Part shown: piece by piece, positions 26,947 through 41,398 of the stretch | Numbering within the stretch: the stretch's first letter is position 1 | How the letters are laid out: each line of letters begins with the position of its first letter | Origin: Clostridia bacterium | GTDB lineage: Bacteria; Bacillota; Sulfobacillia; SLMV01 | Assembly: GCA_003551215.1 (NCBI GenBank) | Contig: PUMD01000031.1 | Coordinates: 1-58,469, forward strand | DNA length: 58,469 nucleotides | Reading direction: 5' to 3' | Notes under the pieces: generated by a model | Seen by the model: the letters and a program-made list of their open reading frames with translations, nothing else | The model's database searches: none | Told to the model about the DNA's origin: nothing | Position numbers and translations under genes: made by a program

Positions 26947-27372
26947 ATGAATAGGAGGAGCGCCCGAAAGGCGGTTTTGCAGACGCTGTTTCAGATTGAC
27001 TCGCGTGACATGGAGCCGCCGTCGGCTGAGGGGTTGCTGGATATATGCAGAGAATCATTGGACAGAAACGAAGTCAGGGCAGCCGGACTACGCGAGTTTG
27101 CCGAAGAACTCGCTGCGACCGTCTACAGCAATCAGGTCAGACTGGACCGGGCGATTCAGGACAGCTCAGAGAAGTGGCGCTTGGACCGGATCGGTCGAGT
27201 GGAGAGAGCGATTCTGCGTATGGCGCTGGCTGAGATGTGGTGGATGGATACTCCCTCTCCGGTGGCCATCGATGAATCTATCGAGCTGACCAAGATCTAC
27301 GCGGGTCCGCAGGCTGCGTCCTTTGTCAACGGAGTGCTCGGCTCGTTTGTGGGTCAGGAACATGAAGGCTGA
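26947..27372 (+). CDS. nusB: Transcription antitermination factor NusB
   Basis: MNRRSARKAVLQTLFQ, WRLDRIGRVERAILR, VAIDESIEL and FVNGVLG motifs. Confidence 0.95.
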   Translation: MNRRSARKAVLQTLFQIDSRDMEPPSAEGLLDICRESLDRNEVRAAGLREFAEELAATVYSNQVRLDRAIQDSSEKWRLDRIGRVERAILRMALAEMWWMDTPSPVAIDESIELTKIYAGPQAASFVNGVLGSFVGQEHEG

Positions 27373-27463: not shown

Positions 27464-28330
27464 GTGTATCCCATTGTCAAAAAGCGCGACCTCACGTCGG
27501 TAACCAAGCTTTTTGAGGTTGAGGCCCCCATGGCAGCCAGAAGAGCTGAGGCTGGTCATTTTGTTATAGTACGCGTGGACGAAAAAGGGGAAAGGATCCC
27601 GCTGACAATTGCCGATTTCGACCGTGATGCTGGCACCATCACTATAGTTGTACAGGAAGTAGGCAAGACGTCAGCCATGGTCAACCGCATGGAACCGGGC
27701 GATGCGTTTGCCGATTTCGTCGGTCCTCTGGGTGAACCTGCTCCCATACGACAGGACGGTCACGTTGTCTGCCTGGGTGGAGGCTTCGGTATCGCTCCTG
27801 TGTATCCGGTAGCAAGAGAACTGCAGGACAACGGGGTCAGGGTGACGTCGATAATAGGAGCGCGTTCCGCTGACCTGTTAATACTGCCCGAAGAAATGCA
27901 GAGCGTCAGCGATGAGCTTTTGATCGCAACCGACGACGGCTCCCTTGGGCATCACGGTTTCGTTACCGAGGTGCTGCGTGAGATGATAGATGATTCTGCT
28001 GAGATAGACGAAGTTATCTCCATAGGGCCCCTGCCCATGATGCGTGCCACCGCCGAGGTGACCAGGCCGCATGGGTTGAAGACCTGGGTCAGCCTTGATT
28101 CTATAATGGTTGACGGAACCGGTATGTGTGGAGCCTGCCGGGTGACCGTAGGTGAAGAGACTCAGTTCTGCTGTGTTGATGGACCGTTTTTCGATGCCCA
28201 TCTGGTCGATTTTGATGAGGCTGCCAAACGCGGTGACATGTATGTAGAAAAGGAACAGCTGGCCTACGAGCGGTTCAAAGAGAACACAGATGACAGTCGA
28301 TGCAGTTGTGGAGGTGAAACCAGTGGCTGA
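27464..28330 (+). CDS. nfnA: NfnA/SudB-type FAD/NAD-binding 2Fe-2S subunit of the electron-bifurcating transhydrogenase
   Basis: GERIPLTIAD, GPLG, GGGFGIAP, TDDGS, IGPLPMM and MVDGTGMCGACRV...CVDGP motifs. Confidence 0.9.
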   Translation: MYPIVKKRDLTSVTKLFEVEAPMAARRAEAGHFVIVRVDEKGERIPLTIADFDRDAGTITIVVQEVGKTSAMVNRMEPGDAFADFVGPLGEPAPIRQDGHVVCLGGGFGIAPVYPVARELQDNGVRVTSIIGARSADLLILPEEMQSVSDELLIATDDGSLGHHGFVTEVLREMIDDSAEIDEVISIGPLPMMRATAEVTRPHGLKTWVSLDSIMVDGTGMCGACRVTVGEETQFCCVDGPFFDAHLVDFDEAAKRGDMYVEKEQLAYERFKENTDDSRCSCGGETSG

Positions 28331-29723
28331 GCGAGATGATCGCTGGGAAAAGGTTGCAATGGAAGAGCTGCCGGCCGATGAGAGGGTCAAGGGTTTTCAA
28401 GAAGTAGCCCTTGGCTATACAGCCGAAGAGATGCTGAAGGAAGCGGAGCGCTGCCTGGGCTGCAAGGTGCCTCAGTGTGAGGATGGCTGTCCGGTAGATG
28501 TTCCCATCGGGGCTTTCATAGAGAAGACAGTGGAAGGTGATCTGCAAGAGGCGGCCCGCCTGATTCTTTCCACAAACAGCCTGCCTGCTATCTGCGGTCG
28601 CGTATGTCCGCAGGAGGAGCAGTGTGAGCTAGAGTGCGTGATGGGAAAGCGCGGCGATTCGATAGCAATCGGGCGACTGGAGAGGTACATAGCCGATTGG
28701 GCCATGGAACAGGGCCTGGACTTCACCGAAGTGTCAGAATCGAAGGGGAAAAGGGTCGCCGTTGTGGGCTCAGGACCGGCCGGGCTCACTGCCGCTGGAG
28801 ACCTGGCACGTATGGGCTATGATGTAACGATATACGAAGCATTCCACGTTCCCGGCGGTGTGTTGATGTACGGGATCCCCGAGTTCCGTCTTCCCAACGA
28901 ACTAGTTCAGGAAGAGATTGAAAACCTCAGAGAGTTGGGTGTGCAGATAGAGACGAATGTGATCGTGGGAAAGACGATCACTGTCGATGAAATGTTCGAT
29001 GAGATGGGCTTTGAGGCTGTGTTCATTGGTTCGGGTGCTGGGCTGCCTACATTCCTGGGACTTCCCGGCGAGAACCTTCTCGGGGTATACTCGGCCAACG
29101 AGTTTTTGACCCGCATAAATCTCATGAATGCGGACAAATTCCCTGAATATGACACTCCAGTCAGAGTGGGAGATAAGGTGGCCGTCATAGGTGCGGGAAA
29201 CACGGCGATGGACGCTGCGCGCACATCGCTGCGGGCAGGTGCCCAAGAGGTACACATAGTCTACAGGCGTTCGGAAGATGAAATGACAGCGCGTATTGAA
29301 GAATACCATCACGCCATCGAAGAGGGAATCAATTTCAACTGGTTGACCAATCCAGTCGAATTTCTGGGCGACGAGGAGGGATGGCTGCGGGCCATGAGAG
29401 TTGTAGAGATGGAACTTGGTGAACCCGATGCTTCTGGCAGGCCCCGTCCCATCCCCATAGAGGGTTCCGAATTTGAAATAGAAGTTGACACAGTAATTAT
29501 GGCCGTTGGTACCAGTCCCAACCCGGTAGTATCAAGCGCTACTCCAGGTCTCGATACGCATTTTTGGGGCGGTATCATTGTCGACGAGGAAACTGGAGAA
29601 ACCACCCGAGAGGGAGTATTCGCAGGTGGTGATGCGGTTACCGGAGCAGCAACGGTAATCCAGGCCATGGGAGCAGGGAAAACAGCGGCCCGCGCTATGG
29701 ACGAGTATCTGCAGGACGACTGA
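28323..29723 (+). CDS. nfnB: NfnB/SudA-type (GltD-like) NADPH-dependent flavoprotein subunit
   Basis: EAERCLGCK...C...CP, ICGRVCPQEEQCE, GSGPAGL, YGIPEFRLP, GAGNTAMD and FAGGDAVTG motifs; translationally coupled to nfnA; no gltB nearby. Confidence 0.88.
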   Translation: MAERDDRWEKVAMEELPADERVKGFQEVALGYTAEEMLKEAERCLGCKVPQCEDGCPVDVPIGAFIEKTVEGDLQEAARLILSTNSLPAICGRVCPQEEQCELECVMGKRGDSIAIGRLERYIADWAMEQGLDFTEVSESKGKRVAVVGSGPAGLTAAGDLARMGYDVTIYEAFHVPGGVLMYGIPEFRLPNELVQEEIENLRELGVQIETNVIVGKTITVDEMFDEMGFEAVFIGSGAGLPTFLGLPGENLLGVYSANEFLTRINLMNADKFPEYDTPVRVGDKVAVIGAGNTAMDAARTSLRAGAQEVHIVYRRSEDEMTARIEEYHHAIEEGINFNWLTNPVEFLGDEEGWLRAMRVVEMELGEPDASGRPRPIPIEGSEFEIEVDTVIMAVGTSPNPVVSSATPGLDTHFWGGIIVDEETGETTREGVFAGGDAVTGAATVIQAMGAGKTAARAMDEYLQDD

Positions 29724-29787: not shown

Positions 29788-30645
29788 ATGTCTGCTGAAA
29801 GAATTGACGGAAAGAAAGCGGCAGCAGATCTTCGCAAGGAGATCGGCGCGGAAGTCAAGAAATTGAAGGAGGAGCACGGGGTTACTCCCGGGCTGGCTGT
29901 TGTGCTGGTCGGAGAGGACCCGGCTTCACAGGTTTACGTCCGCAACAAGCACCGTGCATGCAAAAACGCGGGAATCGAATCACGGGATATTCGTCTTCCC
30001 GAGGACACCCCTCACAGCGAAGTGGTAGCAAAGGTCAAGGAACTAAACGAAGATCCCCAAGTCCACGGAATACTGGTACAGCTTCCCACCCCTGAGCAGG
30101 TTGACGATGAAGAAATAATCAACACCATAGCTCCCGAAAAGGATGTTGACGGATTCCATCCGGTCAACATGGGTAAACTGCTGTCCGGCCAGCCGGAGAT
30201 GGTACCCTGTACTCCCAAAGGGGTAATGCACCTGTTGGATGTCACCGGCGTTGAGCTGGAAGGCAAGGAAGCCACAATAGTAGGCAGAAGTAACATAGTT
30301 GGCAAACCGCAGGCCATGCTTCTTCTTTATGAGCACTGCACCGTCACAATGTGCCACTCGCGCACTAGGGACCTGTCCGAGCACACCTCCCGGGCGGATA
30401 TCCTGGTCTCTGCTGTTGGAGTGCCGGGGTTGATCACTGCCGATATGGTCAAGGAAGGAGCGGTGGTTATTGACGTGGGCATCAACCGTCTGGATGATGG
30501 CTCACTGGCCGGAGATGTTGCCTATGATGAGGTCAAGGAAGTCGCCGGTGCCGTCACTCCGGTTCCGGGTGGAGTTGGCCCGATGACGATAGCAATGCTG
30601 CTGCGCAACACCCTGGAGGCAACGAAACGCTCGCTTGAACACTGA
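29788..30645 (+). CDS. folD: Bifunctional methylenetetrahydrofolate dehydrogenase/cyclohydrolase
   Basis: [33 protein letters not shown] and [11 protein letters not shown] motifs. Confidence 0.97.
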
Positions 30646-30682: not shown

Positions 30683-31918
30683 GTGCCCCAACTGGACAGT
30701 ATCGACGGTCAGCAGGTGAGGGTTTGGACAGTCTCTGAGCTGACTGCTGAGATACGCGACACACTATTCTCCAGGCCTGAACTGAGGCAACTGTGGGTGG
30801 CTGGCGAAGTGTCAAATATGAGCACGCCAGCTTCTGGGCACTGTTACTTCACCCTCAAAGATTCATCATCTTCTATAAGATGCGTCATGTTTCGCAGGCA
30901 TGCCAGCAGTCTTACTTTCGAGCTGGACGACGGCATGGATGTGGTGGCGTTCGGCAACATCGATGTTTACGAGCGGCACGGACAGTATCAGTTGTATGTC
31001 AGGGAAGTGGAACCCTCTGGAGTGGGTTCACTTTATATCGCCTTTCAGCAGCTTCGCCATCGATTGACGGAAGAAGGCTTGTTTGATGCAGAGAGAAAGA
31101 GACCGCTGCCTGCTATGCCGCAGAATGTTGGGGTGGTCACTTCCCGCTACTCGGCCGCCTTCAGGGACATTGTTAAGGTGATACAGCGTCGTGATCCCGG
31201 GTGCAATATTCTGCTCAGCCACTCAACCGTGCAGGGGGATTCCGCCCCCGCGCAGCTGGTATCAGCACTGCATCTTGTGCAGCGCTGCGAGGAAGTTGAA
31301 GTAATCATTATCGCCCGTGGGGGAGGTAGTCTTGAGGACCTGCAGCCATTCAATGATGAGGAGGTAGTCCGGGCAGTTGTCCAGTCTTCGGTTCCGATTG
31401 TAGCCGGCGTGGGGCATGAGACGGATGTGACGCTTTGCGGGCTGGCAGCAGACTCCCGTGCTGCCACCCCCTCTGCTGCAGCTGAACTGGTCGTCACTGA
31501 CCGCAAGCAGGTTGCAGCAGATCTGTGTTCAGTCTCAGCCAAGATCGTCAGGCGGCTTGAGCGGCTAATACTTGATAAACGAGCCCGGCTGAAAGGAATA
31601 TTATCCCGCCGCTCGCTTCAGCGCCCCGAGGATATCCTGACCGGACGCAGGCAGACGCTGGATGCGCTTGCAGACAGTATTATGAGCTCGCAGAAACACA
31701 ACGTGAGGGACCACCGTCACCGTGTGGTGACATTGACACAAAGGCTGCAAGCCCTCAATCCTGCTTCCGTTCTCCGTCGTGGATACAGTATAGTTCGAGA
31801 CGACAGCGGGCAAGTATTGCGCAATGCCGAAGACGTAGAGGTATCGGACCACATTCTTATTGAGCTGCAAAACGGAGAACTGGATGCAGAGGTGCTGCGA
31901 ACTCATCACAAGCAGTAA
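30683..31918 (+). CDS. xseA: Exodeoxyribonuclease VII large subunit
   Basis: GEVSN, SGHCYFTLKD, ARGGGSLEDL, GVGHETD and ATPSAAAE motifs. Confidence 0.96.
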   Translation: MPQLDSIDGQQVRVWTVSELTAEIRDTLFSRPELRQLWVAGEVSNMSTPASGHCYFTLKDSSSSIRCVMFRRHASSLTFELDDGMDVVAFGNIDVYERHGQYQLYVREVEPSGVGSLYIAFQQLRHRLTEEGLFDAERKRPLPAMPQNVGVVTSRYSAAFRDIVKVIQRRDPGCNILLSHSTVQGDSAPAQLVSALHLVQRCEEVEVIIIARGGGSLEDLQPFNDEEVVRAVVQSSVPIVAGVGHETDVTLCGLAADSRAATPSAAAELVVTDRKQVAADLCSVSAKIVRRLERLILDKRARLKGILSRRSLQRPEDILTGRRQTLDALADSIMSSQKHNVRDHRHRVVTLTQRLQALNPASVLRRGYSIVRDDSGQVLRNAEDVEVSDHILIELQNGELDAEVLRTHHKQ

Positions 31919-31948: not shown

Positions 31949-32227
31949 TTGCAAAAGCAGCCGCATGAGCAGGCCGATTGCGCCAAAAAGGATGCTGAGT
32001 TGGATTTTGAAAAGTCTCTTCAGAGGCTCGAGGAGATTGCAGATGTTCTCGATTCGGGTAACATAAGCTTGGAGAAATCTCTTCAGCTCTTCGAAGAAGG
32101 GATGGACCTGGTGAAGACCTGCCAGAGAATACTGGATGAGGCAGAAGGCAAGATACAGGAGTTGATTGAACTCAATGAGGATACCATGGACCGCATCTCG
32201 TTGGAAGACGAATCGTTTCATCAGTGA
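31949..32227 (+). CDS. xseB: Exodeoxyribonuclease VII small subunit
   Basis: FEKSLQRLEEI...SLEKSLQLFEEG...CQRILDEAE. Confidence 0.95.
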   Translation: MQKQPHEQADCAKKDAELDFEKSLQRLEEIADVLDSGNISLEKSLQLFEEGMDLVKTCQRILDEAEGKIQELIELNEDTMDRISLEDESFHQ

Positions 32228-32257: not shown

Positions 32258-33160
32258 ATGAGCGAAATGCCGATCCCCGAAGCACACCCGCCCAAGTGCG
32301 TATCTGAATTGAGACCTGTTGTCGAGGAGCAGCTGTGCCGGTGGCTTCCATCAGCAGACGATGTGCCTGCACGTCTGGCTGAAGCGATGCACTACAGCGT
32401 TTTCAGCGGAGGCAAGAGGATCAGACCGATACTCGCCCTGCTCAGCTGCCGGATGATCTCCTCGGATACGGCTCCTGCATTGCCGGCTGCCTGTGCCGTG
32501 GAGTTTATTCACACCTATTCGTTGATTCATGATGATCTTCCATGTATGGATGATGATGACGTGCGCCGCGGCAAGCCCACATGCCACGTGGCTTTTGGCG
32601 AGGCACTGGCGGTGCTGGCAGCAGACGGTCTGCAGGCTTTGGCATACGAAGTCCTCAGCCGCGCTGATTATCCGCCCGGGCCCGCAGTGAAAATGGTGAG
32701 GGAGCTGTCCTCAGCTTCTGGTCCTTCAGGCATGGTAGGAGGGCAGGTAATGGATATAAGTCAGTCGAACCGGAAGGCTGCTCCTGAGGAGCTTCGTGCC
32801 CTGCATGCAGCCAAGACGGGGGCCCTCATACGTGCTTCGGTAAACGTGGGAGCAATTGCAGCCGGGGCGACCGATGAGCAACTGCAGCACCTTGACGAGT
32901 ATGGCAGGCAATTCGGCCTGGCTTTTCAGATCACAGATGACATTCTTGATGTGGTCGGAGATCCCGAAAAGACCGGGCGTTACCGTGGTTCGGACCAGCA
33001 ATCAGACCGCTTCACCTATCCCCGCCTGTATGGAGTGAAGCGCTCTCGTCAGAAAGCCCGTGCTGCCGTAGAAAGGGGCAGAGAAGCATTACGCTGTTTT
33101 GGCAGCAGGTCAGACGAGCTTGTGAATCTGCTTGAGTTTGTTATTGCCCGGGACAGGTGA
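32258..33160 (+). CDS. ispA: Farnesyl/geranylgeranyl diphosphate synthase
   Basis: GGKRIRP, HTYSLIHDDLPCMDDDDVRRGKP, GGQVMD, KTG and FQITDDILD motifs. Confidence 0.95.
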   Translation: MSEMPIPEAHPPKCVSELRPVVEEQLCRWLPSADDVPARLAEAMHYSVFSGGKRIRPILALLSCRMISSDTAPALPAACAVEFIHTYSLIHDDLPCMDDDDVRRGKPTCHVAFGEALAVLAADGLQALAYEVLSRADYPPGPAVKMVRELSSASGPSGMVGGQVMDISQSNRKAAPEELRALHAAKTGALIRASVNVGAIAAGATDEQLQHLDEYGRQFGLAFQITDDILDVVGDPEKTGRYRGSDQQSDRFTYPRLYGVKRSRQKARAAVERGREALRCFGSRSDELVNLLEFVIARDR

Positions 33161-33279
33161 TACAGCACTGTACTGGACAGGTGCAGAGTCCTCTGTTACG
33201 ATTAGCATCGGATAAACACCATGATGATAAGCTCCGGTGGTATTTTACTCTTATGATTTGGTCAACATTTACCGCCCAT

Positions 33280-33847
33280 CTGCTCTGGGGCGGGGAGCAG
33301 TATCCTAGTCGGTTTCGCAGTGTCTCAAAACGGGCCTAAAAACCCGTTTCGGGCACATCGATGAAGCCTGTGGTGCTGGCTGCTGACGCCCAGTCAGGAG
33401 CTTGTGCTGGAGGAAAGTGAGCTGGGGAGCCCTGCAATGGCATGCAGGCTCCTTCCCTAGTTCATGCTGAGGCCCGGTTGCGTGGTTGGTCAGTTCTCGC
33501 ACTGCTGCTACGGGCCGGGGACAACCTGCATGCGGGATGACTGTGTGCAGCGTAGCCCGTCCTGAGTGAAGTGCGGTGGAGGTTTGTGCATATTGCTGAA
33601 ACCGTCTTTGCAAAAAGGACTAGGACACCGGCGAGCTGTTGAGGAAAACTCCTAGGCTGCTCACCTGCGTGAGGCTCAGCGGGGATTGAAGTGTGTGCTG
33701 AGTGGCGATCCAGTTTCGGCCCCGGTGACGGACCGAGGTGGAACCTAAGGGGTAACCGTTGCCCGGCAACGGGCAGTGTTCCACCGGGAAATCCTACTGG
33801 ACCTAAGTCACAGGATTTACCCGCCAGGCTTCCCCGACCCAGAGCAG
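33280..33847 (+). ncRNA. ole: OLE RNA (ornate, large, extremophilic RNA)
   Basis: A ~570-nt stretch with no credible protein gene between ispA and oapA-dxs, the canonical OLE position. Closing helix 33280-33298/33828-33847; TCCTAGTC(33303)/GACTAGGA(33618) pairing; blocks recalled from the OLE consensus: CCTAAAAACCCG, GGGCACATCGATGAAG, GCAATGGCATGC, GCGTAGCC, TTGAGGAAAACTCCTAG, CTGAGTGGCGATCCAG and GGGAAATCCTACTGGACCTAAG. Confidence 0.9.
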
Positions 33848-33971
33848 CGGCTTTTGGGACTGCCGTATATACTGACGCAGGTAAGAGGCGAACACCTGCG
33901 ATTTTGTGTTATTATGCTGAGTGTGTCCCGCTGTTTGGATGTGTTGTGCTCAGACATGTACGTTTGGAGTG

Positions 33972-34562
33972 ATGCGATTGGCTGGGAGCCCCAACTCCAG
34001 GCACAGAAATTCTCTGCGCCGCGGCATGGCCTTTGCCCTTCTCAGTTTTGTTCTTACTGTAATCATAGTGGTGCCTTCCCGTCATGCAACTCAGCAGTTA
34101 AGCCTGGTTGGCGGACTGCTGGTCATAATTGTGGTGGTGTCATTGGGGGTGGTGGCGGACATGCTGGGGGTTGCAGCTGCAGCGGCTTCGGAAGCCCCCT
34201 TTCATGCTATGGCCGCCCGTAAGATAACCGGCGCCCGCCAGGCGTTGAAAATGGTGCAACATGCTGACCGCGTATCAACTCTTTTTGCTGATGTTATGGG
34301 GGATGTTGCTGGAACAGTAAGTGGGGCAGCCGCTGCTGCAGTAGTCCTGCGGTTTTTTGCCGTTGCTTCTGAGGTGGCTCCGCCCAGGACAATCGTGGAT
34401 GCACTAGTTGTAGCCCTGGCCGCCAGCCTGACTGTGGGAGGCAAGGCTGCTTGCAAGGAGCTGGCCCTCAGGAGATCCACCGATGTTCTGATGGTGGCAG
34501 GGAAGATTATGTGGTGGCTGGAGCACTACCTGCCAGTCTCTATACTGGAAGATGCAGACTGA
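33972..34562 (+). CDS. oapA: OLE-associated protein A (membrane protein)
   Basis: A ~196-aa multi-TM protein with GVVADMLGVA, EAPFHAMAARK, ADVMGDVAGTVSG (DxxxD) and SLTVGGKA; directly downstream of the OLE RNA. Confidence 0.88.
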   Translation: MRLAGSPNSRHRNSLRRGMAFALLSFVLTVIIVVPSRHATQQLSLVGGLLVIIVVVSLGVVADMLGVAAAAASEAPFHAMAARKITGARQALKMVQHADRVSTLFADVMGDVAGTVSGAAAAAVVLRFFAVASEVAPPRTIVDALVVALAASLTVGGKAACKELALRRSTDVLMVAGKIMWWLEHYLPVSILEDAD

Positions 34563-34691
34563 AGGTGATACGGTTAAAATAACGAGTTCGACCTGGGATG
34601 GGTTCAGCTGAATAGGGCATGTTGAATGCGGGTGACTTACTCTTCCGTTGCAGGGGTGATTTTTTAACACGACAAACACGGAGGGAAAAGG

Positions 34692-36587
34692 ATGGAAGGT
34701 AGCGGGCGAACACTGTTGGAGCAAATGGAATCACCTGATCAGCTGCGAGGCCTTCGGATGTCGGAGCTTGACCAGCTGGCAGAGGAAATCAGGCAGTGTA
34801 TTATAACCACTGTGACCGAGACAGGTGGACACTTGGCTTCCAGCCTCGGGGTGGTGGAGCTAACCTTGGCACTGCACCGGGTGTTTGACAGTCCCCACGA
34901 TCGCATAATCTGGGATGTTGGTCACCAGAGCTATGCTCACAAACTGGTGACCGGCAGACTGAAGGAATTCTCCACTCTCAGACAGCGAGACGGCCTGAGT
35001 GGTTTTCCCAAGCCCCAGGAAAGCCCGCACGACCCATTTGCTGCTGGTCATTCCAGCACATCTGTGGCCGCGGGCCTGGGTTTTGCAGTGGCAGAGAAAC
35101 TGCGACATGAGGACCGCGAAGTTGTGGCCGTTATAGGAGACGGGGCCCTGACTGCGGGTATGGCATATGAAGGTCTCAATACCGCAGGCCACCTTGCCCC
35201 GGATCTGGTTGTGGTCTTAAATGACAACAGTATGTCCATCGCTCCGAATGTTGGGGCAATGTCCAACTACCTCACTCGCCTGAGGTCAGAGCCAACCTAC
35301 CAGCGCGTCAAAGAGGATCTGAACGTCATTTTGCAGAACATACCCCGGGTGGGACGCCGCATGGCCGAGAGTCTTGAGCGGGTGAAGGGGAGTTTTAAAT
35401 ATTTGTTCATCCCGGGGATCATTTTTGAGGAACTGGGATTCACTTACCTGGGTCCGGTCAATGGTCATAACATTGAGACTCTGAGTCGTGTGCTTCAAAA
35501 AGCGCGAGATCTTACCGGTCCGGTTCTGGTTCATGCTGTCACTGTGAAAGGCAAGGGCTATCAGCCGGCGGAGACTGAGCCTTCCGAGTTTCATGGAGTA
35601 AGCGGTAACTCCACCGCCAGCTTCAGCCCGCCTGATGGTGCAATGAAATACAGTGAAGTTTTCTCCCGGACGATGGTGCGCCTGGCAGCCGATGACGACC
35701 GGGTAGTTGGCATAACGGCGGCAATGCCCGATGGTACCGGCCTGTCGCGATTAGCTGAGCAGATCCCCCAGCAGTATTTCGATGTCGGAATCGCTGAGCA
35801 GACAGCAGTAACATTCGCCGGCGGTCTGGCTGCAGCGGGATTCCGCCCGGTCGTAGCCATATATTCGACCTTCCTGCAGAGAGCTTACGATCAGGTGATT
35901 CACGACATCGCCCTGCAGGATTTACCAGTAGTGTTTGCCGTGGACAGAGCCGGTATCGTTGGAAAGGATGGCGAAACTCACCAGGGAGCTTTTGACCTGG
36001 CTTTTCTGCGTCACATCCCGAACATGACGGTAATGGCTCCGCGGAATGAAAACCAGCTGGCCCACATGCTGGCCACTGCCGTTGCCTACGATGATGGTCC
36101 GGTTGCAGTGCGTTACCCCCGTGGATATGGCTGGGGGGAGGCACTTCCGGAGCATCCCCGGCATCTCACCATAGGGAAGGGCGAGCTTTTAGCCGACGGC
36201 AACGACGTGGCCATCGTGGGAATCGGTCACGTAGTGACAGCTGCGGTTCAGGCAGCCGATATCCTGGCGCGGGAAGGGCTGTCGGTAGGCGTTGCCGATG
36301 CCCGTTTTGTCAAACCGCTGGATTGTCACCTCCTGCGCAGGATGGCAGCAAAGGTTAAGCTGTTGGTGACAGTTGAGGAAGGTTCAGCGCAGGGGGGATT
36401 CGGCAGCGCAGTACTGGAGATGTTGACCTCAGATATGGCTCCTTCCACGCTGCCGCGCATCCACCTGCATGGACTGCCCGATGAATTTATCCCGCACGGA
36501 GACCAGCAGGGTATGCGCATTGAATATGGTCTTGATGCGGTCAGCATCGCGGACAAAGTCCGGGGACTGCTCAACGGCGCACAGTGA
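34692..36587 (+). CDS. dxs: 1-deoxy-D-xylulose-5-phosphate synthase
   Basis: GGHLASSLG, WDVGHQSY, GDGALTAG, LNDN, FEELG, DVGIAEQ and DRAGIVGKDGETHQG motifs. Confidence 0.97.
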   Translation: MEGSGRTLLEQMESPDQLRGLRMSELDQLAEEIRQCIITTVTETGGHLASSLGVVELTLALHRVFDSPHDRIIWDVGHQSYAHKLVTGRLKEFSTLRQRDGLSGFPKPQESPHDPFAAGHSSTSVAAGLGFAVAEKLRHEDREVVAVIGDGALTAGMAYEGLNTAGHLAPDLVVVLNDNSMSIAPNVGAMSNYLTRLRSEPTYQRVKEDLNVILQNIPRVGRRMAESLERVKGSFKYLFIPGIIFEELGFTYLGPVNGHNIETLSRVLQKARDLTGPVLVHAVTVKGKGYQPAETEPSEFHGVSGNSTASFSPPDGAMKYSEVFSRTMVRLAADDDRVVGITAAMPDGTGLSRLAEQIPQQYFDVGIAEQTAVTFAGGLAAAGFRPVVAIYSTFLQRAYDQVIHDIALQDLPVVFAVDRAGIVGKDGETHQGAFDLAFLRHIPNMTVMAPRNENQLAHMLATAVAYDDGPVAVRYPRGYGWGEALPEHPRHLTIGKGELLADGNDVAIVGIGHVVTAAVQAADILAREGLSVGVADARFVKPLDCHLLRRMAAKVKLLVTVEEGSAQGGFGSAVLEMLTSDMAPSTLPRIHLHGLPDEFIPHGDQQGMRIEYGLDAVSIADKVRGLLNGAQ

Positions 36588-36670
36588 TGAATCTGCCGTG
36601 GGTAGCCTGAGTCTGGTTGTACAGGCTTGTGAGGAAATGGTTGACGTTTGGGAGAGGAGAGATGAGCGAT

Positions 36671-37558
36671 ATGGCATTTGATCTTTGCGGTGTTTATCCG
36701 CCGATATCCACACCATTTGTCGATGGAGAGGTCTCATATGATCACCTGGGGGCCAACGTTCGCAAATGGAATGAGACAGGCCTCAGCGGTCTGGTAGTAT
36801 TGGGGTCCAATGGGGAGTTCCCTCATCTGACCGAAGACGAGATGATGCGGGTCGTTGAGGTGGTAGCAGAGGAGCTTGCCGGCAAAAAGCACGTTGTCGT
36901 AGGGACCGGAGCTCCCGCCACTCACACCACGATCTCGCGAACCCTGCGCGCGCACGATGCCGGGGCTGAAGCGGTCATGGTGATTCCGCCTTACTACTAC
37001 CGCCCGCGGATGGGATACGATGAGCTTTTCAGTCATTACACCGAGGTAGCGGACAGCTCACCGGTTCCGGTGATACTTTACAACATGCCCGCCTTTGCTG
37101 GGCTGGCGCTTGCGGCAGACCTCATCATTGAACTGAGTCAGCATCCCAACATAGTCGGCGTCAAGGACAGCTCAGGAGACGTAACCCAGATGTCGCTGTG
37201 CGTGAGCAGCTGTTCTTCTGATTTTGGGGTTATGGCCGGTTCGGGCAGCTATCTTCTGCCGGGGCTGCTTATGGGATGCGCCGGGGGTGTAATGGCGCTG
37301 GCCAATGTAGCCCCTGATGAATGCGTGCAGCTTCACCGCATGGCCCGCGAGGGCAGATACGACGATGCGGTCGCGCTGCAGCAGCGGCTCATCCCGGTCA
37401 ATCAGGCTGTCACCTCCACCTACAGTATTCCCGGGCTGAAATACGCCATGGACCTGCGCGGATACTTCGGTGGCGAACCACGGAAACCCCTGCTTCCGCT
37501 GGATGAACAGGGACGGAGCGATATACGAAGAATCCTGCAGGAAGCGGACATGCTCTAG
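36671..37558 (+). CDS. DapA/NanA family class I aldolase (4-hydroxy-2-oxoglutarate aldolase-like)
   Basis: GVYPPISTPF, GSNGE (GTTGE in true DapA), PPYYY, LYNMP and the Schiff-base motif GVKDS. Confidence 0.85.
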   Translation: MAFDLCGVYPPISTPFVDGEVSYDHLGANVRKWNETGLSGLVVLGSNGEFPHLTEDEMMRVVEVVAEELAGKKHVVVGTGAPATHTTISRTLRAHDAGAEAVMVIPPYYYRPRMGYDELFSHYTEVADSSPVPVILYNMPAFAGLALAADLIIELSQHPNIVGVKDSSGDVTQMSLCVSSCSSDFGVMAGSGSYLLPGLLMGCAGGVMALANVAPDECVQLHRMAREGRYDDAVALQQRLIPVNQAVTSTYSIPGLKYAMDLRGYFGGEPRKPLLPLDEQGRSDIRRILQEADML

Positions 37559-37627
37559 CCTGTTTTCCGGCGGCCTACTGCATAACGAAGCTGGCCGGAC
37601 TGTTGTGCCTGAAAGGAGTGAGGCGTC

Positions 37628-38779
37628 TTGACCGATGCGGGACATTGCCGTCTGAAGCAGGTTGTCAGGCGCAGAGAAAAGATGCTTGATTTTCTCCGTA
37701 CCCTGGTTAATACTGACTCCCCCAGCACCGAGCCTGAGCTGACCAGCAAGATCAGTCGGATGGTCGGTGACAAGTGCAGGCAGCTGGGTGCCTGCGTTAA
37801 ATACATAAAGGCCGAAGGTGCCGGCGATCATCTCAAGGCTGTATGGAATCCTGGTGGGGATTTCGATGAAAGATTGCTTCTTCTGTGCCACCTCGACACG
37901 GTATGGCCGGAAGGGGAGACAGACAAAAGGCCTTTTGAGCTTGATGGAGACAGGGCTACTGGTCCCGGGATTTTTGACATGAAGGCAGGAGTCGTACAGG
38001 CGCTGTTTGCTGTGGAGGTGCTGTCTGAGTCCGGGCAAATGCCCGACCGGCCCGTTGTTCTTTTCTGTAACACCGATGAGGAAATAGGCAGCGACACTTC
38101 GCGAGACATAATAGAGAATCTGGCTCAGCAGTCCGCCTGCACTTTGGTTTTGGAACCATCGATACCCCCTGATGGAGCACTGAAGACGGCCCGAAAAGGC
38201 GTAGGCCGGTTTACCGTCACAACCTATGGAACGGCGGCACATTCGGGAGCAGACCACCGACAGGGAATAAGTGCAATTGAGGAGATGGCCCGTCAGGTGC
38301 AGTACTTGCATTCGTTGACGGATTATGACCGGGGTACCACCGTGAACGTGGGGGTCATCGAGGGTGGCTCAAGATCCAATGTGGTTGCTGAACAATGCAC
38401 AGCAGAGGTTGATCTGCGCGTGACCACCCCAGAGGAAGGAAAGCAGATGGAAAAGGTCATAATGGGACTGAAGCCCAAGCTGTCTGGGGCGCGAGTTAAG
38501 GTCACGGGAGGTCTGAACCGGCCTCCAATGCAGCGAACCGAGCAGATTGCACAGATGTTCGAAAAGGCCCGTCAGATTGGCGAGGAATTAGGTCTAAAAA
38601 TAGTTGAGGATAGCACCGGCGGGGCCAGCGACGGCAATTTTACCGCCGCTTTGGGAGTGCCCACCATTGACGGGCTGGGAGCTGTGGGTGCGGGCGGTCA
38701 CGCTCGTGATGAATGGATCAGCATAAAGAAGATGATACAGAGGACAGCTTTGCTCGCCGAACTCATTCGAAAATTGTGA
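37628..38779 (+). CDS. M20 family metallopeptidase (glutamate carboxypeptidase-like)
   Basis: HLDTVW, GPGIFDMKAG, DEEIGS, LEP, AAHSG, GGASDGN and GGHARDE motifs. Confidence 0.92.
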   Translation: MTDAGHCRLKQVVRRREKMLDFLRTLVNTDSPSTEPELTSKISRMVGDKCRQLGACVKYIKAEGAGDHLKAVWNPGGDFDERLLLLCHLDTVWPEGETDKRPFELDGDRATGPGIFDMKAGVVQALFAVEVLSESGQMPDRPVVLFCNTDEEIGSDTSRDIIENLAQQSACTLVLEPSIPPDGALKTARKGVGRFTVTTYGTAAHSGADHRQGISAIEEMARQVQYLHSLTDYDRGTTVNVGVIEGGSRSNVVAEQCTAEVDLRVTTPEEGKQMEKVIMGLKPKLSGARVKVTGGLNRPPMQRTEQIAQMFEKARQIGEELGLKIVEDSTGGASDGNFTAALGVPTIDGLGAVGAGGHARDEWISIKKMIQRTALLAELIRKL

Positions 38780-38800: not shown

Positions 38801-39670
38801 GTGCACATAGGTATAATCGGAAACAGATCCAAAGACCCAAGCGGCGCAATAATCAGAAATCTGATTGACTGGCTGAAACAGCGGGGCGTCGGTGTCTCGG
38901 TGGATGAGGAGGCAGCCGGGGTCGCTGGGTTATCTGCTGCTCCCATCTGTCATTGGGATGAGTCTAATATGGATTTCGTGATCGTCTTGGGTGGTGACGG
39001 GACGCTGCTGCGCGCGGCCAAGATGATCTGCGAGTCGAGCATTCCCCTTTTGGGCGTCAATATGGGAAGATTGGGGTTTCTTACCGAGATCGAGGTGAGT
39101 GCTCTGTATGATGTTCTCCCCGAGTTTCTGCAAGGGCGGTACACTCGGGATACCCGACACTTTCTACGTGCTTCGGTGCTCAGAGACGGTGAAGTAATGC
39201 ACGACTTTCTCGCCCTAAACGATGTGGTGATAGGTAAGGGTAGCTTCTCGCGCATGATCTCGGTTAAGATATGGGCCGATGATGCTCTGCTTGGCAGCTA
39301 TCCGGCAGATGGCGTAATTCTGAGCACTGCCACCGGTTCAACCGCCTATTCGCTTTCGGCCGGCGGGCCGGTACTGCATCCGAAGGTTGAAGTTCTTTTG
39401 GCCACCCCGATTTGCCCGCACTCGTTTCACGCGCGCCCGGTGGTACTGGATTCCGAACAGGTTATAACCGTTCGTACTGAGCACCGTCCCGATGTTACCC
39501 CGATGGTTACAGTGGACGGTCAGGAAGGATGCGAGCTGATAGGTAGTGACTTGCTGCGGGCTCATCTTTCGGCAGAAACTGTGACCCTGCTGAGGCGGCC
39601 TGAATGGAACTTCTACCAGGTATTGCGGAAGAAGCTGTTTCACCGTGATGACACAAGAGAGAGGGGGTAA
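38801..39670 (+). CDS. nadK: NAD(+) kinase
   Basis: GGDGTLL, GRLGFL, LND, DG and TATGSTAYSLSAGGP motifs. Confidence 0.95.
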   Translation: MHIGIIGNRSKDPSGAIIRNLIDWLKQRGVGVSVDEEAAGVAGLSAAPICHWDESNMDFVIVLGGDGTLLRAAKMICESSIPLLGVNMGRLGFLTEIEVSALYDVLPEFLQGRYTRDTRHFLRASVLRDGEVMHDFLALNDVVIGKGSFSRMISVKIWADDALLGSYPADGVILSTATGSTAYSLSAGGPVLHPKVEVLLATPICPHSFHARPVVLDSEQVITVRTEHRPDVTPMVTVDGQEGCELIGSDLLRAHLSAETVTLLRRPEWNFYQVLRKKLFHRDDTRERG

Positions 39671-39673
39671 CCC

Positions 39674-41398
39674 TTGCTGGCTCATCTTTCAGTGGAGAAT
39701 TTTGCCCTGCTGGAGAAAATGGAGGTTGAGCTGAGGCCGGGCCTGAACGTGATAACCGGAGAGACCGGGGCCGGTAAGTCGCTGTTTGTTGATGCGGTGG
39801 CGGTTGCACTGGGCGCCCGGGGATCTTCGGAGTACATACGTTCGGGGGCAGACACCACTCATGTCAGTGCGCTGTTTTACTGTTCGGAGTCGGCAGGGGG
39901 CCAAAAGCTGCAGAGGCTTAGCTTTGCTTCCGGGGAAGACTCTGAGGTATTGATTGAGCGTCAACTGCGCAGAGACCAACAGAACAGAGCCTGGGTCAAC
40001 GGACGTCTGAGCAGCGTAAACAGCATCAAGGAGTTTGCCCGGATGATGGTTGACATGCACGGTCAGCATCAACAGCAGGGCCTTTTGCGTCCATCAGAGC
40101 AGCTGCGGATGCTCGACGAGATGGCTGGCAAGCAGGCGCAGTGTGCTGCTGCGACAGTTGCCACCCTGCATCATCAGCTTTCAGGAATACGAGACGAGCT
40201 GCGCGACCTCACCGGGGATGACAAGGAAAGGGCGCGGCGTCTCGATCTGCTCAAGTACCAGCTGCGTGAAATAGATGAGGCTGAACTGGACCCCGAGGAG
40301 GAGCAGGATCTGAAAAACCGACAGAACATACTGGCTAACCTGCAGCAGCTGCGCAGCGGGATAGGTCAGCTCCTTACCCGACTCAATGATGGCTTTCAGG
40401 GCGCCTCGCCGGTTGTTGATGAGGTTGGGCAGATGGCCGAAAGTCTTGGCCGGTTGGCTGATATAGACAACAGCCTAAGAGAAGACGCCGACAGCCTTCG
40501 GGGCGTGCAATATGAGCTGCAGGAGGCTGGCAGGACGCTGAGGCATTACCTGGAGAACCTTGATTACGACCCGGGACAGCTGGAACAGGTACAGCGGCGG
40601 CTGGACGAAATAAGTCAGCTGAAGAGCAAATACGGAAACAGTGTGCAGGAGGTGCTGCAGTATCGGGAGGAAGTAGCCGGGCATATTGAGAGCATTGAGG
40701 GTTCAGAGAAGAGAATTGAAGACCTGAAAAAGCGGCAGGAGGAAGTCAGCCGTCAGCTGGGAGAGGCTGCAAACCAGCTCAGCCAGCTGAGGCAAAAATT
40801 CGCATCAACTTTGCAGACGCGCATGCAGCAGGAGCTGTCTGATCTACACATGGAGGACGCCGAGTTTACTATTGAATTCCAAAGGCAGCCGGACGAAAAT
40901 GGAGTTCCGGTAGGGCAGCAGCGTTATCACTGTACTCCTTTTGGAATAGACACCGTAGAGTTTATGATTGCTCCCAATCCTGGCGAACCCATGATGAAAC
41001 TGCGGAATATAGCCTCCGGAGGAGAGCTGGCCAGACTGATGCTGGCTTTGAAAAATGTAGCCGCCGGTGCTGGCTCGACTCCTGTGCTCATATTTGACGA
41101 GATAGACGCTGGGGTTGGAGGTAAAGCAGGCCGGGCAATTGCACAGAAGCTTGACTCCATTGCCAAAAATCACCAGGTGCTCAGCGTTACCCACCTCCCT
41201 CAGGTTGCCGCTGCCGCCGATGCGCATTTTCTGCTGCACAAGGAAAGCGTTGCGGGTCGGACAGTTAGCAAACTGACTCCAGTGAGTGATGAAGTTCGGG
41301 TCCGGGAAATCGCCCGCATGTTGGGCGGAAGTCCGGAAGACGCGGCAGCCAAACGACACGCGCGTCAGCTTCTTCAAATGACCACTGACGGTGGATAG
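39674..41398 (+). CDS. recN: DNA repair protein RecN
   Basis: GETGAGKS, HGQH, a coiled coil, ASGGELAR, FDEIDAG and THLPQVA motifs. Confidence 0.96.
   Translation: MLAHLSVENFALLEKMEVELRPGLNVITGETGAGKSLFVDAVAVALGARGSSEYIRSGADTTHVSALFYCSESAGGQKLQRLSFASGEDSEVLIERQLRRDQQNRAWVNGRLSSVNSIKEFARMMVDMHGQHQQQGLLRPSEQLRMLDEMAGKQAQCAAATVATLHHQLSGIRDELRDLTGDDKERARRLDLLKYQLREIDEAELDPEEEQDLKNRQNILANLQQLRSGIGQLLTRLNDGFQGASPVVDEVGQMAESLGRLADIDNSLREDADSLRGVQYELQEAGRTLRHYLENLDYDPGQLEQVQRRLDEISQLKSKYGNSVQEVLQYREEVAGHIESIEGSEKRIEDLKKRQEEVSRQLGEAANQLSQLRQKFASTLQTRMQQELSDLHMEDAEFTIEFQRQPDENGVPVGQQRYHCTPFGIDTVEFMIAPNPGEPMMKLRNIASGGELARLMLALKNVAAGAGSTPVLIFDEIDAGVGGKAGRAIAQKLDSIAKNHQVLSVTHLPQVAAAADAHFLLHKESVAGRTVSKLTPVSDEVRVREIARMLGGSPEDAAAKRHARQLLQMTTDGG

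What the first reader, a model, noticed from the sequence alone, without database searches (positions are those of the whole stretch)
33280..34562. OLE RNA and oapA hidden between ispA and dxs
Seen: about 570 nt enclosed by a long GC-rich closing helix (CTGCTCTGGGGCGGGGAGC / GCTTCCCCGACCCAGAGCAG), with many GNRA-like or GGCAAC/GGTGAC hairpins, followed by a membrane protein with a DxxxD motif (ADVMGD). Established: OLE RNA is one of the largest structured bacterial ncRNAs, forms a membrane RNP with OapA, sits in the nusB-folD-xseAB-ispA-ole-oapA-dxs-nadK-recN operon, and its biochemical function is still unresolved. The class is known, but ORF-based annotation misses it, and this GC-rich, slightly short variant should be informative for covariation analysis.
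Basis: partly seen in the sequence, partly recalled or inferred. Interest (0 to 1): 0.72.

Follow-up and report, generated by a model that had tools for sequence, protein, structure and literature searches.

The report
OLE RNA gene with oapA partner
This is a genuine copy of the large membrane-bound OLE noncoding RNA with its partner gene oapA, an ordinary member of a known class that has lost the tip of one long stem.

Summary
The finding holds. Rfam's OLE model (RF01071) matches window 33276-33851 (+) over its full length at 388.8 bits (cut-off 50, E 9.6e-111). It is the only copy in the genome.

- **Closing helix:** it pairs 33280-33296 with 33831-33847 (16 pairs plus one G.A). It sits in the same register in 33 of 38 relatives, with compensatory changes.
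- **Downstream ORF:** best start 33972, end 34562. It is OapA by four tests:
  - 78 of 80 homologue loci carry OLE directly upstream, and 19 of 20 were confirmed by Rfam.
  - The DxxxD motif is invariant in 89 sequences.
  - The fold is CNNM-like (Z 13.0 to MtCorB).
  - A homodimer is predicted.
- **Other partners:** OapB and OapC candidates lie elsewhere in the genome.

OLE occurs in 39 of 41 sampled genomes of this class, so this locus is a routine member. Its 59.7% GC is mid-range for the class. Its short length (576 nt, median 613.5) comes from losing the tip of stem P9, including the GGCC self-pairing loop seen in about 68 of 89 OLE RNAs. Expression was not shown.

The parts
32258..33160 (+). 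ispA (farnesyl diphosphate synthase), the upstream neighbour
   Evidence: NF045485 FPPsyn at 341.5 bits and PF00348 at 209.1 bits.
33174..33202 (+). Promoter-like site (TGGACA, 17 nt spacer, TACGAT, with TG extension) between ispA and ole. A candidate only.
   Evidence: Consensus scan: 2 sites found in the region against 1.0 +/- 0.9 in shuffles, so not above chance.
33276..33851 (+). OLE RNA gene (Rfam RF01071 match). The structured core is 33280-33847.
   Evidence: 388.8 bits, E 9.6e-111, model 1-616 of 616. Single copy in the genome. Fold z-score -5.21.
33280..33296 (+). 5' arm of the terminal closing helix (published P1/P2 region)
   Evidence: Pairs with 33831-33847 as 16 pairs plus one G.A. 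The register is the same in 33 of 38 relatives, at 8-19 pairs with compensatory changes. Nine of 12 members of the own family have 15-19 pairs.
33329..33348 (+). Hairpin with the conserved A-rich loop CCUAAAAA (P4 by the published description)
   Evidence: Aligned to the model hairpin at positions 54-73. The P4 A-rich loop is a dimer contact in cryo-EM according to PMC12265935 section 4.
33388..33392 (+). GCCCA loop (P5.1 by order of stems), same sequence as the consensus
   Evidence: cmscan alignment. The stem name is my inference from PMC12265935.
33437..33442 (+). AUGGCA loop (P6.1 by order of stems), same sequence as the consensus
   Evidence: cmscan alignment. The stem name is my inference.
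33559..33620 (+). Stem P9, with its tip truncated (apex about 33583-33595) and no GGCC loop
   Evidence: Model positions 311-356 (46 nt) are replaced by 9 nt. A 39-column gap separates it from four family members. The GTAGCC-to-TGAAAC span is 45 nt against a median of 84, sixth shortest of 89. No palindromic apical loop was found.
33716..33736 (+). P13 hairpin: GUGA tetraloop (33725-33728) and a single bulged C (33721). This is the OapB docking-site type.
   Evidence: Aligned to model <<<<<-<<<____>>>>>>>>. The requirement for a GNRA loop plus a one-nucleotide bulge comes from PMC7936274 passages.
33766..33769 (+). GCAA tetraloop of the second GNRA hairpin (P14.1 by the published description)
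   Evidence: cmscan alignment and PMC7936274 passages.
33972..34562 (+). oapA, 196 aa from ATG 33972. The longest frame starts at GTG 33921, and the database version starts at ATG 34026 (178 aa).
   Evidence: - 343 homologues of about 190-205 aa.
- The six closest homologues aligned (P0003-P0006, P0008, P0009) start at the position aligned to M at 33972.
- OLE lies upstream of 78 of 80 homologue loci.
- AF2 pLDDT 85.7.
- CNNM fold, Z 13.0.
- Dimer ipSAE 0.52 against 0.00 for the best control.
34290..34304 (+). Codons of the DxxxD motif (D107-V-M-G-D111, numbered from 33972)
   Evidence: D107, G110 and D111 are invariant in 89 aligned homologues. DxxxD is named a distinctive OapA feature in PMC11332333. 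Both residues lie in the predicted dimer interface.
34692..36587 (+). dxs (1-deoxy-D-xylulose-5-phosphate synthase), the downstream neighbour
   Evidence: TIGR00204 at 830.9 bits.

Best explanation
Window 33276-33851 encodes an OLE (ornate, large, extremophilic) RNA, and 33972-34562 encodes its membrane partner OapA. Both lie on the + strand between ispA and dxs in a Bacillota genome.

**Shown here**
- The RNA matches the OLE covariance model end to end.
- It keeps these features:
  - the terminal closing helix;
  - the A-rich P4 loop;
  - the P5.1 and P6.1 loops;
  - the region where the OapC k-turn forms;
  - the P13 GUGA hairpin with its single-base bulge.
- The downstream protein belongs to the protein family that sits directly behind OLE genes. 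It has the invariant DxxxD and TVGGK motifs, four long helices, and a CNNM-type transmembrane fold without CBS or CorC domains. It is predicted to form a symmetric dimer with those motifs in the interface.
- The genome also encodes an OapB-like KOW protein and a YbxF/OapC-like L7Ae protein.
- No CNNM/MpfA gene was found in the genome.

**Inferred from published work on Halalkalibacterium halodurans and two Clostridium OLE RNAs**
- The RNA is transcribed with the surrounding operon and folds into two domains.
- It dimerises through loop contacts and is held at or in the membrane by OapA. OapB sits on P13 and OapC on the k-turn.
- The particle helps the cell cope with Mg2+, cold, alcohol and carbon-source stress.
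- The most likely division of labour is that OapA supplies a CNNM-like divalent-cation pathway. The RNA would then replace the cytoplasmic regulatory domains of MpfA-type transporters.

**Particular to this copy and its genus**
- The tip of P9 and its GGCC kissing loop are missing.
- The terminal helix is long, as in the rest of the family.
For: **RNA identity**
- RF01071 at 388.8 bits against a gathering score of 50, E 9.6e-111, full model.
- One copy in the 2.83 Mb, 92.6%-complete genome.
- Fold z-score -5.21.
- Present in 39 of 41 genomes of the class sample, the own genome included. All 12 genomes of the own family, the window's included, have it.
- Terminal helix of 16 pairs. The register is the same in 33 of 38 relatives, with different sequences.

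**OapA**
- 343 homologues at E <= 0.001.
- OLE lies directly upstream on the same strand in 78 of 80 homologue loci by my nhmmer profile. Rfam confirmed it above the gathering score in 19 of 20 tested.
- D107, G110, D111 and T154-K158 are invariant in 89 sequences.
- AF2 model at pLDDT 85.7.
- Best solved folds:
  - MtCorB 7m1t, Z 13.0, rmsd 2.8 A over 133 residues;
  - 7m1u, Z 12.6;
  - CorC 7cff, Z 11.6;
  - 7cfg, Z 11.3;
  - next unrelated row, Z 8.7.
- The four MtCorB chains also top the Foldseek list at probability 0.97-1.00.
- Homodimer prediction:
  - ipSAE 0.52, best of 3 controls 0.00.
  - The mark was reached by 20 of 30 proteins solved as pairs of one chain and by 1 of 23 solved as single chains.
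  - The runs agree in at least 95% of contacts, and partner pLDDT is at least 75.
  - My own alignment was used, so these counts hold only roughly.
  - CNNM dimers are solved, so the pass may reflect likeness to them.

**Other partners**
- OapB candidate: G000 C165, locus L013 1136-1441, between map and infA. Its best PDB sequence hit is OLE-associated protein B (7k9b), E 2.6e-4.
- OapC candidate: G000 C146, locus L002 1501-1800, between rpoC and rpsL. Its best PDB hits are the B. subtilis L7Ae-like protein and YbxF, at 1.5e-15 and 1.8e-15.
- PF01595 has no match in the own genome. That fits the published anticorrelation between OLE and MpfA (PMC11332333 passages).

**Context and RNA libraries**
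- Synteny: nusB, folD, xseA, xseB, ispA, ole, oapA, dxs, nadK, recN.
- Contigs from two RNA libraries lie on 33280-33476 (197 nt, 9 other letters and 2 gaps), 33295-33445 (151 nt, 7 other letters) and 33613-33825 (213 nt, 11 other letters).
Against: - **No transcript shown:** the RNA-library records are assembled contigs. Most are only 90-95% alike and fit only in part, so they come mainly from relatives. They show neither strand, ends nor level. The tool also warns that DNA can be present in such libraries.
- **Weak family and sequence scores for OapA:** it has no Pfam or NCBIfam match at E <= 0.001, nor PF01595 at E <= 1, and no PDB match by sequence. Its Foldseek E-values to CorB are only 0.019-0.32.
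- **Weak partner scores:** the OapB match is weak (24.9 bits, residues 5-57 only). The OapC candidate scores 98.3 bits, below NF010125's cut-off of 113.
- **Low OLE score for the sample:** 388.8 bits ranks 36th of the 38 full-length hits.
- **Missing dimer contact:** the P9 tip is one of the four dimer contacts seen by cryo-EM (PMC12265935 section 4), and it is absent here.
- **Function is borrowed:** every statement about function comes from other species.
Confidence: 0.93

Rival explanations
1. The locus is a decaying OLE gene. The sequence is still recognisable, but the RNA no longer forms a working particle because it has lost the P9 tip and its kissing loop.
For: - The score of 388.8 bits is third lowest of the 38 full-length hits in the class sample.
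- The P9 apex and GGCC loop are absent.
- Defective OLE genes are reported as rare cases in PMC11332333.
Against: - The reported defective genes occur where OapA is absent. Here oapA is intact, with all invariant residues.
- OapB and OapC candidates are present.
- The same-genus genome G001 keeps an OLE (407.1 bits) with a similarly short P9. This suggests the short form is inherited and kept.
- All other conserved loops and the closing helix are intact.
- About nine of 89 OLE RNAs from other lineages also have short P9 spans.
Confidence: 0.04
2. The 570-nt element acts only in cis, as a structured leader or processing signal for oapA-dxs, and is not a stable RNA of its own.
For: - No terminator-like site lies between the element and oapA.
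- It is on the same strand as both neighbours.
- No transcript ends were seen.
Against: - Published work on the family shows a stable RNA that binds OapA, OapB and OapC and localises to membranes (PMC11332333, PMC7936274, PMC9723947 and PMC12265935).
- The protein docking sites are conserved here.
- The terminal helix pairs the two ends of the element, as expected for a discrete folded RNA.
Confidence: 0.02
3. The short P9 is an assembly artefact, for example a chimera of related strains joined at conserved OLE segments. The organism would really carry a full-length P9. This rival concerns only the sub-claim about the P9 tip.
For: - The genome is a 210-contig, metagenome-style assembly with 4.7% contamination.
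- In the DNA run, two contigs overlap only at 33539-33553.
- Several related OLE sequences are present in the same runs.
Against: - The truncated apex (about 33583-33595) lies inside one DNA contig that runs from 33539 to 34700 with one differing letter. That run may be the source of the window.
- The two DNA contigs have similar depth, 8.75 and 7.84.
- A separately assembled same-genus genome shows a similar truncation.
Confidence: 0.05

Closest known systems
Full-length OLE RNA (Rfam RF01071), studied in Halalkalibacterium halodurans, with cryo-EM structures from Clostridium species
   Same: - Full-length match to the model.
- Same position ahead of oapA and between ispA and dxs.
- Conserved P4, P5.1 and P6.1 loops, the P13 GNRA hairpin with bulge, and the terminal helix.
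- Partner genes present.
   Different: - The P9 apex and its GGCC self-complementary loop are missing.
- The terminal helix has 16 pairs. Non-family relatives have a median of 10 pairs and range from 7 to 18.
- GC is 59.7%.
- The surrounding operon holds four additional genes.
[quoted passage not shown]
   Same: P9 is shortened, as in variant 1.
   Different: - P7 (model 198-244) and P8 (model 252-280) are present at about normal length, so this is neither variant as defined.
- The OapB site on P13, often lost in variant 1, is kept.
- OapB and OapC candidates are present, whereas those clades largely lack them.
- The genome is 2.83 Mb, and the best DNA holder is labelled a salt lake metagenome. 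The variant clades are reduced-genome gut organisms.
MpfA / CorB / CorC (CNNM-domain Mg2+ transporters)
   Same: The OapA model superposes on the CNNM transmembrane domain (7m1t Z 13.0, 7cff Z 11.6) and is predicted to dimerise.
   Different: - OapA has an extra N-terminal helix (residues 8-42 lie outside the aligned range 43-192).
- It has no CBS or CorC domains.
- It carries DxxxD, which CNNM domains lack according to PMC11332333.
- It does not reach PF01595.
Other large ornate bacterial RNAs (GOLLD, ROOL)
   Same: They are large structured noncoding RNAs that form homo-oligomers. I saw only the abstract listing of PMC12286853.
   Different: No sequence or model relationship. Only RF01071 and three tRNAs reach the gathering score in the window.

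Membership tests
OLE RNA (RF01071) | Score above the curated gathering score of the covariance model, over the whole model | tested here: met
   388.8 bits against 50, model 1-616 of 616, not truncated. The same result came from the whole-genome search.
OLE RNA (RF01071) | oapA gene immediately downstream on the same strand | tested here: met
   ORF 33972-34562 (+) starts 121 nt after the Rfam match ends. OLE lies upstream of 78 of 80 homologue loci.
OLE RNA (RF01071) | Terminal helix joining the 5' and 3' ends (P1/P2), supported by covariation | tested here: met
   16 pairs plus one G.A. The register is the same in 33 of 38 relatives, at 8-19 pairs with differing sequences. Native partners average 11.95 pairs against 8.4 for mismatched partners, a weak control because the inner pairs are conserved.
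OLE RNA (RF01071) | [quoted passage not shown] | tested here: met
   GUGA loop at 33725-33728 and bulged C at 33721, aligned to the model hairpin. The requirement comes from PMC7936274.
OLE RNA (RF01071) | Long P9 stem ending in a self-complementary (GGCC-type) kissing loop | tested here: not met
   The apex is cut to 9 nt where the model has 46. A GGCC-centred palindrome is present in about 68 of 89 OLE RNAs, and any palindrome of 4 nt or more in 77 of 89. None was found in the window or in same-genus G001. This feature is common but not universal in the family, so membership stands.
OLE RNA (RF01071) | Host in Bacillota | tested here: met
   The closest named OapA homologues and loci are labelled Bacillota bacterium, Limnochordia, Symbiobacteriaceae and Bacillaceae. 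The class itself was not named by any tool.
OLE RNA (RF01071) | Expressed as a stable RNA of about 600 nt | tested here: inconclusive
   RNA-library contigs about 95% alike lie on parts of the element. They are contigs from relatives and carry no strand or end information.
OLE variant 1 / variant 2 (PMC11332333) | Shortened P7, P8 and P9 (variant 1), or P7 and P8 absent (variant 2) | tested here: not met
   P7 and P8 align over model 198-244 and 252-280 with only small gaps. Only P9 is shortened.
OapA | DxxxD motif | tested here: met
   D107-V-M-G-D111. Both Asp residues are invariant in 89 homologues. The motif is named distinctive in PMC11332333.
OapA | Four transmembrane helices, CNNM-like fold, no CBS or CorC domains | tested here: met
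   The AF2 model has long helices at 8-42, 45-71, 98-134 and 139-167. Z is 13.0 to MtCorB and 11.6 to the CorC transmembrane domain over residues 43-192. The protein is 196 aa with no Pfam domain. Membrane insertion itself is inferred.
OapA | Forms a dimer | tested here: met
   Prediction only. ipSAE 0.52 against a best control of 0.00. The mark was reached by 20 of 30 solved homodimers and 1 of 23 solved monomers. Contact agreement is at least 95% and pLDDT at least 75. The pass may reflect likeness to solved CNNM dimers.
OapA | Binds OLE RNA and brings it to the membrane | not testable with these tools
   This needs binding and localisation experiments.
OapB (YbzG) | Small KOW-motif protein similar to the solved OapB | tested here: met
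   A 101-aa ORF (L013 1136-1441) has OLE-associated protein B (7k9b) as its best PDB hit, E 2.6e-4, residues 5-57. The Pfam KOW model did not find it. The similarity is weak.
OapC (YbxF) | L7Ae-family k-turn binding protein of the YbxF type | tested here: met
   A 99-aa ORF between rpoC and rpsL. PF01248 scores 40.9 bits. The best PDB hits are B. subtilis L7Ae-like protein and YbxF at 1.5e-15 and 1.8e-15. NF010125 scores 98.3 bits, below its cut-off of 113.

The most novel reading that the evidence does not exclude
This genus carries a working OLE particle whose RNA has lost the P9 arch and its GGCC kissing loop, one of the four dimer contacts seen by cryo-EM. All other contacts and protein sites are kept.

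If so, the arch is dispensable for OLE function in a free-living organism. Dimerisation would rest on the P4 and P5.1/P6.1 contacts. It might be helped by the remaining 9-nt loop UGUGCAUAU, which contains self-complementary UGCA, or by the long terminal helix of this family.
Probability: 0.4. Interest if true: 0.45.

Novelty: new member of a known kind. Interest (0 to 1): 0.3.

Why it matters
OLE is one of the largest structured bacterial RNAs without an established biochemical function. Recent structural work proposes that it spans the membrane as a dimer.

This locus adds no new kind of element. OLE is near-universal in this class (39 of 41 sampled genomes).

It has two practical uses:

- **Natural test of the P9 arch:** with its same-genus relative, this locus forms a minority (about nine of 89) that lacks the P9 arch tip and GGCC kissing loop. 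The rest of the RNA and all three partner genes are kept. That is a natural test of whether the fourth dimer contact is needed, and a more compact RNA for structural work.
- **Covariation data:** GC-rich class members with long terminal helices give clear compensatory changes for helices that the Rfam consensus structure leaves unpaired.

The annotated start of oapA (178 aa form) also probably cuts off conserved N-terminal residues.

Tried and rejected
**Searches on OapA that found nothing**
- Pfam and NCBIfam scans gave no match. Pfam at E <= 1 gave only a meaningless JAB hit.
- The PDB sequence search gave only chance hits at E 0.14 or worse.

**OapB and fold searches**
- The Pfam KOW search of the own genome, even at E <= 10, did not find OapB. 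I then looked between map and infA, following the B. subtilis gene order. That order is recalled from memory, not taken from a call. The candidate was found there.
- Foldseek E-values for the OapA model were weak, with none at or below 0.001. I took a second look with VIA-align.

**Closing-helix measures**
- A first, fixed-register measure failed to anchor 8 of 112 sequences. It gave 0-2 pairs for many others because the anchors slipped.
- I replaced it with a register search on the 38 Rfam-defined sequences only.
- The mismatched-partner control is weak, because the inner six pairs are conserved across many sequences.

**P9 measures**
- The span could be anchored in only 89 of 112 sequences. 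Three of the shortest spans (L102, L059, L028) look mis-anchored. One search used a stricter anchor, so those three are not in its set.
- The self-complementary UGCA in the window's remaining P9 loop is not evidence. A 4-nt palindrome in a 9-nt loop is expected by chance about one time in three (my estimate). The same-genus RNA has none, and the minimum-free-energy fold does not place it in the loop.

**RNA and DNA runs**
- No RNA contig lay on ispA, oapA or dxs flanks within 33100-34700. For contigs, absence of cover proves nothing, so I do not use it.

**Other**
- The search of earlier findings returned nothing for this place.
- A search of PMC10898510 for PM1, DxxxD, aspartate and operon found no passages. 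I therefore make no claim about which OapA residues the PM1 mutant changes.
- I did not name the class of the organism, because no tool gave it.
Full report
**Observation.**
- The arms at 33280-33296 and 33831-33847 pair over 17 positions, 16 pairs plus one G.A. They enclose 568 nt.
- GNRA hairpins are present, including a GUGA loop at 33725-33728 and a GCAA loop at 33766-33769.
- The frame 33921-34562 is open and encodes FADVMGDVAGT.
- The RNA folds at -273.4 kcal/mol against -234.1 +/- 7.5 for 100 shuffles, z -5.21, with none folding as well.

**Identity of the RNA.**
- Rfam's OLE model RF01071 matches 33276-33851 (+) at 388.8 bits. The gathering score is 50, E is 9.6e-111, and model positions 1-616 are covered without truncation.
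- The only other Rfam matches above threshold in the window are three tRNAs.
- The own genome (210 contigs, 2.83 Mb, 92.6% complete, 4.7% contamination) holds this one copy.
- Four ORFs that overlap the element have no Pfam match at E <= 1.

**Surroundings.** All genes below are on the + strand:
- nusB 26947-27372
- an FAD/NAD-binding subunit 27464-28330
- a gltA-like NADPH-dependent glutamate synthase 28290-29723
- folD 29788-30645
- xseA 30683-31918
- xseB 31949-32227
- ispA 32258-33160
- ole
- oapA
- dxs 34692-36587
- a dapA-like gene 36617-37558
- an M20 peptidase 37628-38779
- nadK 38801-39670
- recN 39674-41398

A promoter-like site at 33174-33202 is no more than chance gives, and no terminator-like site lies between ole and oapA.

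**The protein.**
- It has no Pfam or NCBIfam match and no PDB match by sequence.
- It has 343 homologues at E <= 0.001. Those listed are mostly 190-205 aa, and those that carry a name are mostly labelled Bacillota. A few carry a weak precomputed PF01595 hit.
- In 80 homologue loci from species genomes, a profile built from 38 Rfam-defined OLE RNAs finds OLE directly upstream on the same strand in 78. The misses are L117, where only 21 nt of upstream sequence exist, and L057, a real miss.
- Rfam itself confirms OLE above the gathering score in 19 of 20 loci tested. The miss is again L057.
- So this is the OLE-adjacent protein family, which the literature calls OapA (PMC11332333 passages).
- D107, G110, D111 and T154-V-G-G-K158, numbered from the ATG at 33972, are invariant in 89 sequences. 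DxxxD is given as a distinctive OapA feature in PMC11332333.
- The six closest homologues aligned (P0003-P0006, P0008, P0009) begin at the position aligned to the Met at 33972. The conserved RRG segment lies upstream of the Met at 34026, which the 178-aa database version uses. The best start is therefore 33972, although its GGAG lies only 2 nt ahead of the ATG.

**Fold of the protein.**
- An AlphaFold2 model built with the 89-row alignment has pLDDT 85.7 and pTM 0.77. Its long helices are at 8-42, 45-71, 98-134 and 139-167.
- Foldseek ranks the four MtCorB CNNM chains first, at probability 0.97-1.00 but E only 0.019-0.32.
- VIA-align gives:
  - 7m1t: Z 13.0, rmsd 2.8 A over 133 residues;
  - 7m1u: Z 12.6;
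  - CorC transmembrane domains 7cff and 7cfg: Z 11.6 and 11.3;
  - next row: Z 8.7.
- The aligned range 43-192 leaves the first helix outside. That fits the published statement that OapA has four transmembrane helices where CorB has three.
- A two-copy prediction passes:
  - ipSAE 0.52, best of 3 controls 0.00.
  - The mark was reached by 20 of 30 solved homodimers and 1 of 23 solved monomers.
  - Contact agreement is at least 95% and pLDDT at least 75.
  - My own alignment was used, so these counts hold only roughly.
  - The interface includes residues 107, 111 and 147-161, so it takes in both invariant motifs.
  - CNNM dimers are solved, so this may reflect likeness to them.

**Other partners.**
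- *OapC candidate:*
  - The L7Ae Pfam model finds one gene in the genome.
  - It is a 99-aa ORF between rpoC and rpsL.
  - Its best PDB hits are the B. subtilis L7Ae-like protein and YbxF, at 1.5e-15 and 1.8e-15.
  - NF010125 scores 98.3 bits, under its cut-off of 113.
- *OapB candidate:*
  - The KOW model did not find OapB.
  - A 101-aa ORF between map and infA does have OLE-associated protein B (7k9b) as its best PDB hit, E 2.6e-4 over residues 5-57. The map-ybzG-infA gene order is recalled from B. subtilis.
  - The alignment keeps the Gly of GRD and the His of NHLK. By position these probably correspond to G19 and H57, whose mutation abolishes OLE binding (PMC7936274 passages). That assumes a numbering offset of 4, which is my inference.
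- *RNA docking site:* the P13 hairpin keeps a GUGA loop and a one-base bulge.
- *MpfA:* PF01595 has no match in the own genome, though it rings in 12 of 14 control genomes. This agrees with the published OLE-MpfA anticorrelation. The genome is 92.6% complete.

**How ordinary it is.**
- OLE is found in 39 of 41 genomes of the class sample, the own genome included. All 12 genomes of the own family, the window's included, have it.
- The window's score ranks 36th of the 38 full-length hits.
- Its GC of 59.7% is 14th lowest of 38, in a sample range of 54.3-68.0%.
- Its length of 576 nt is fourth shortest, against a median of 613.5.

**Closing helix.**
- Rfam's consensus structure leaves model positions 1-53 and 596-616 unpaired.
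- In 33 of 38 sequences the best terminal helix starts at the same homologous position. It has 8-19 pairs, and the sequences differ by compensatory changes.
- Nine of 12 members of the own family have 15-19 pairs. Non-family values run from 7 to 18, with a median of 10.
- This corresponds to the P1/P2 region of the published model (PMC12265935 section 4). The assignment is mine.

**Why it is short.**
- Against four family members the only large gap is 39 columns at the tip of one stem. The same-genus RNA lacks 29 of these columns.
- By stem order and by the description in PMC12265935, this is P9. In cryo-EM structures its long arms end in a symmetrical loop that forms one of four dimer contacts.
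- The GTAGCC-to-TGAAAC span is 45 nt here against a median of 84. That is sixth shortest of the 89 sequences that could be anchored, out of 112.
- A palindrome of 4 nt or more sits at the apical P9 loop in 77 of 89. About 68 of these are GGCC-centred (UGGCCA, GUGGCCAC, AAGGCCUU and similar). None was found in the window or in the same-genus RNA.
- Most of the other short-P9 RNAs also lack such a loop.
- P7 and P8 are present, so this is neither variant 1 nor variant 2 of PMC11332333 (section 5).
- The P4, P5.1 and P6.1 loops match the consensus.

**Expression.**
- The best DNA holder (share 0.97) is labelled a salt lake metagenome and may be the source of the window. Two RNA libraries from two studies hold small shares.
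- Laid at 90% likeness, their contigs lie on 33262-33855. Most are 90-95% alike and fit only in part.
- The longest pieces are 33280-33476, 33295-33445 and 33613-33825, each about 95% alike.
- One relative's contig carries 75 letters where the window has 40 (33568 to 33609), which indicates a full-length P9 in that relative.
- OLE RNAs of close relatives therefore occur in RNA libraries of such lakes. Transcription of this copy is not shown.

**Verdict.** This is a real ole-oapA locus with OapB and OapC candidates, in a class where OLE is the rule. It is a new member of a known kind. Its one notable trait is the loss of the P9 tip and kissing loop, shared with its genus.

**Papers and what I saw of them**
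- PMC11332333: passages and section 5.
- PMC7936274 and PMC9723947: passages.
- PMC12265935: abstract, outline and sections 4 and 6.
- PMC12286853: search listing only.
- PMC10898510: search listing, plus a term search with no hits.
- No supplements were opened.

Noticed in passing
L057 (named public record, OapA match at 1501-2043): This OapA homologue (40% identity) has no OLE within the 1500 nt upstream, by either my profile or Rfam. It is the only real miss among 80 loci. It could be an OapA without OLE, or an OLE placed elsewhere.
   Followed up: no
window 27464-29723: Two overlapping redox genes are inserted between nusB and folD. One is a sulfide/dihydroorotate dehydrogenase-like FAD/NAD-binding subunit (NF004862, 399.5 bits). 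The other is a gltA-type NADPH-dependent glutamate synthase (TIGR01316, 596 bits).
   Followed up: no
window 36617-38779: A DHDPS-family gene and an M20 metallo-hydrolase sit between dxs and nadK. The DHDPS-family gene scores 197.4 bits on TIGR00674 (dapA), below that model's cut-off of 206.15.
   Followed up: no
L005 556-1659 (G000 C176): A 367-aa NusG-like protein matches the 172-position nusG model across residues 6-367. It therefore carries an insertion of about 190 residues. A second KOW match with an open frame of 235 aa lies on C146; I took it for the ordinary NusG from its place but did not check it.
   Followed up: no
G021 C206 8089-8506: In one same-class genome OLE is found only as two adjoining partial matches, model 279-595 and 191-277, with the 5' third missing. 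It may be a broken or misassembled copy.
   Followed up: no
G015 and G016 (same class): These are the only two of 41 sampled genomes with no OLE match, although they are 98% and 100% complete. Whether they carry MpfA instead was not checked.
   Followed up: no
window 15641-15725 (-), 25738-25821 (+), 41479-41563 (+): Three tRNA genes of 84-85 nt. The one alignment shown, for 15641-15725, has a long variable arm.
   Followed up: no
window 34026: The database version of the window's own OapA (P0002, 178 aa) starts 18 codons downstream of the start supported by homologues. It omits the conserved basic segment ending in RRG.
   Followed up: partly
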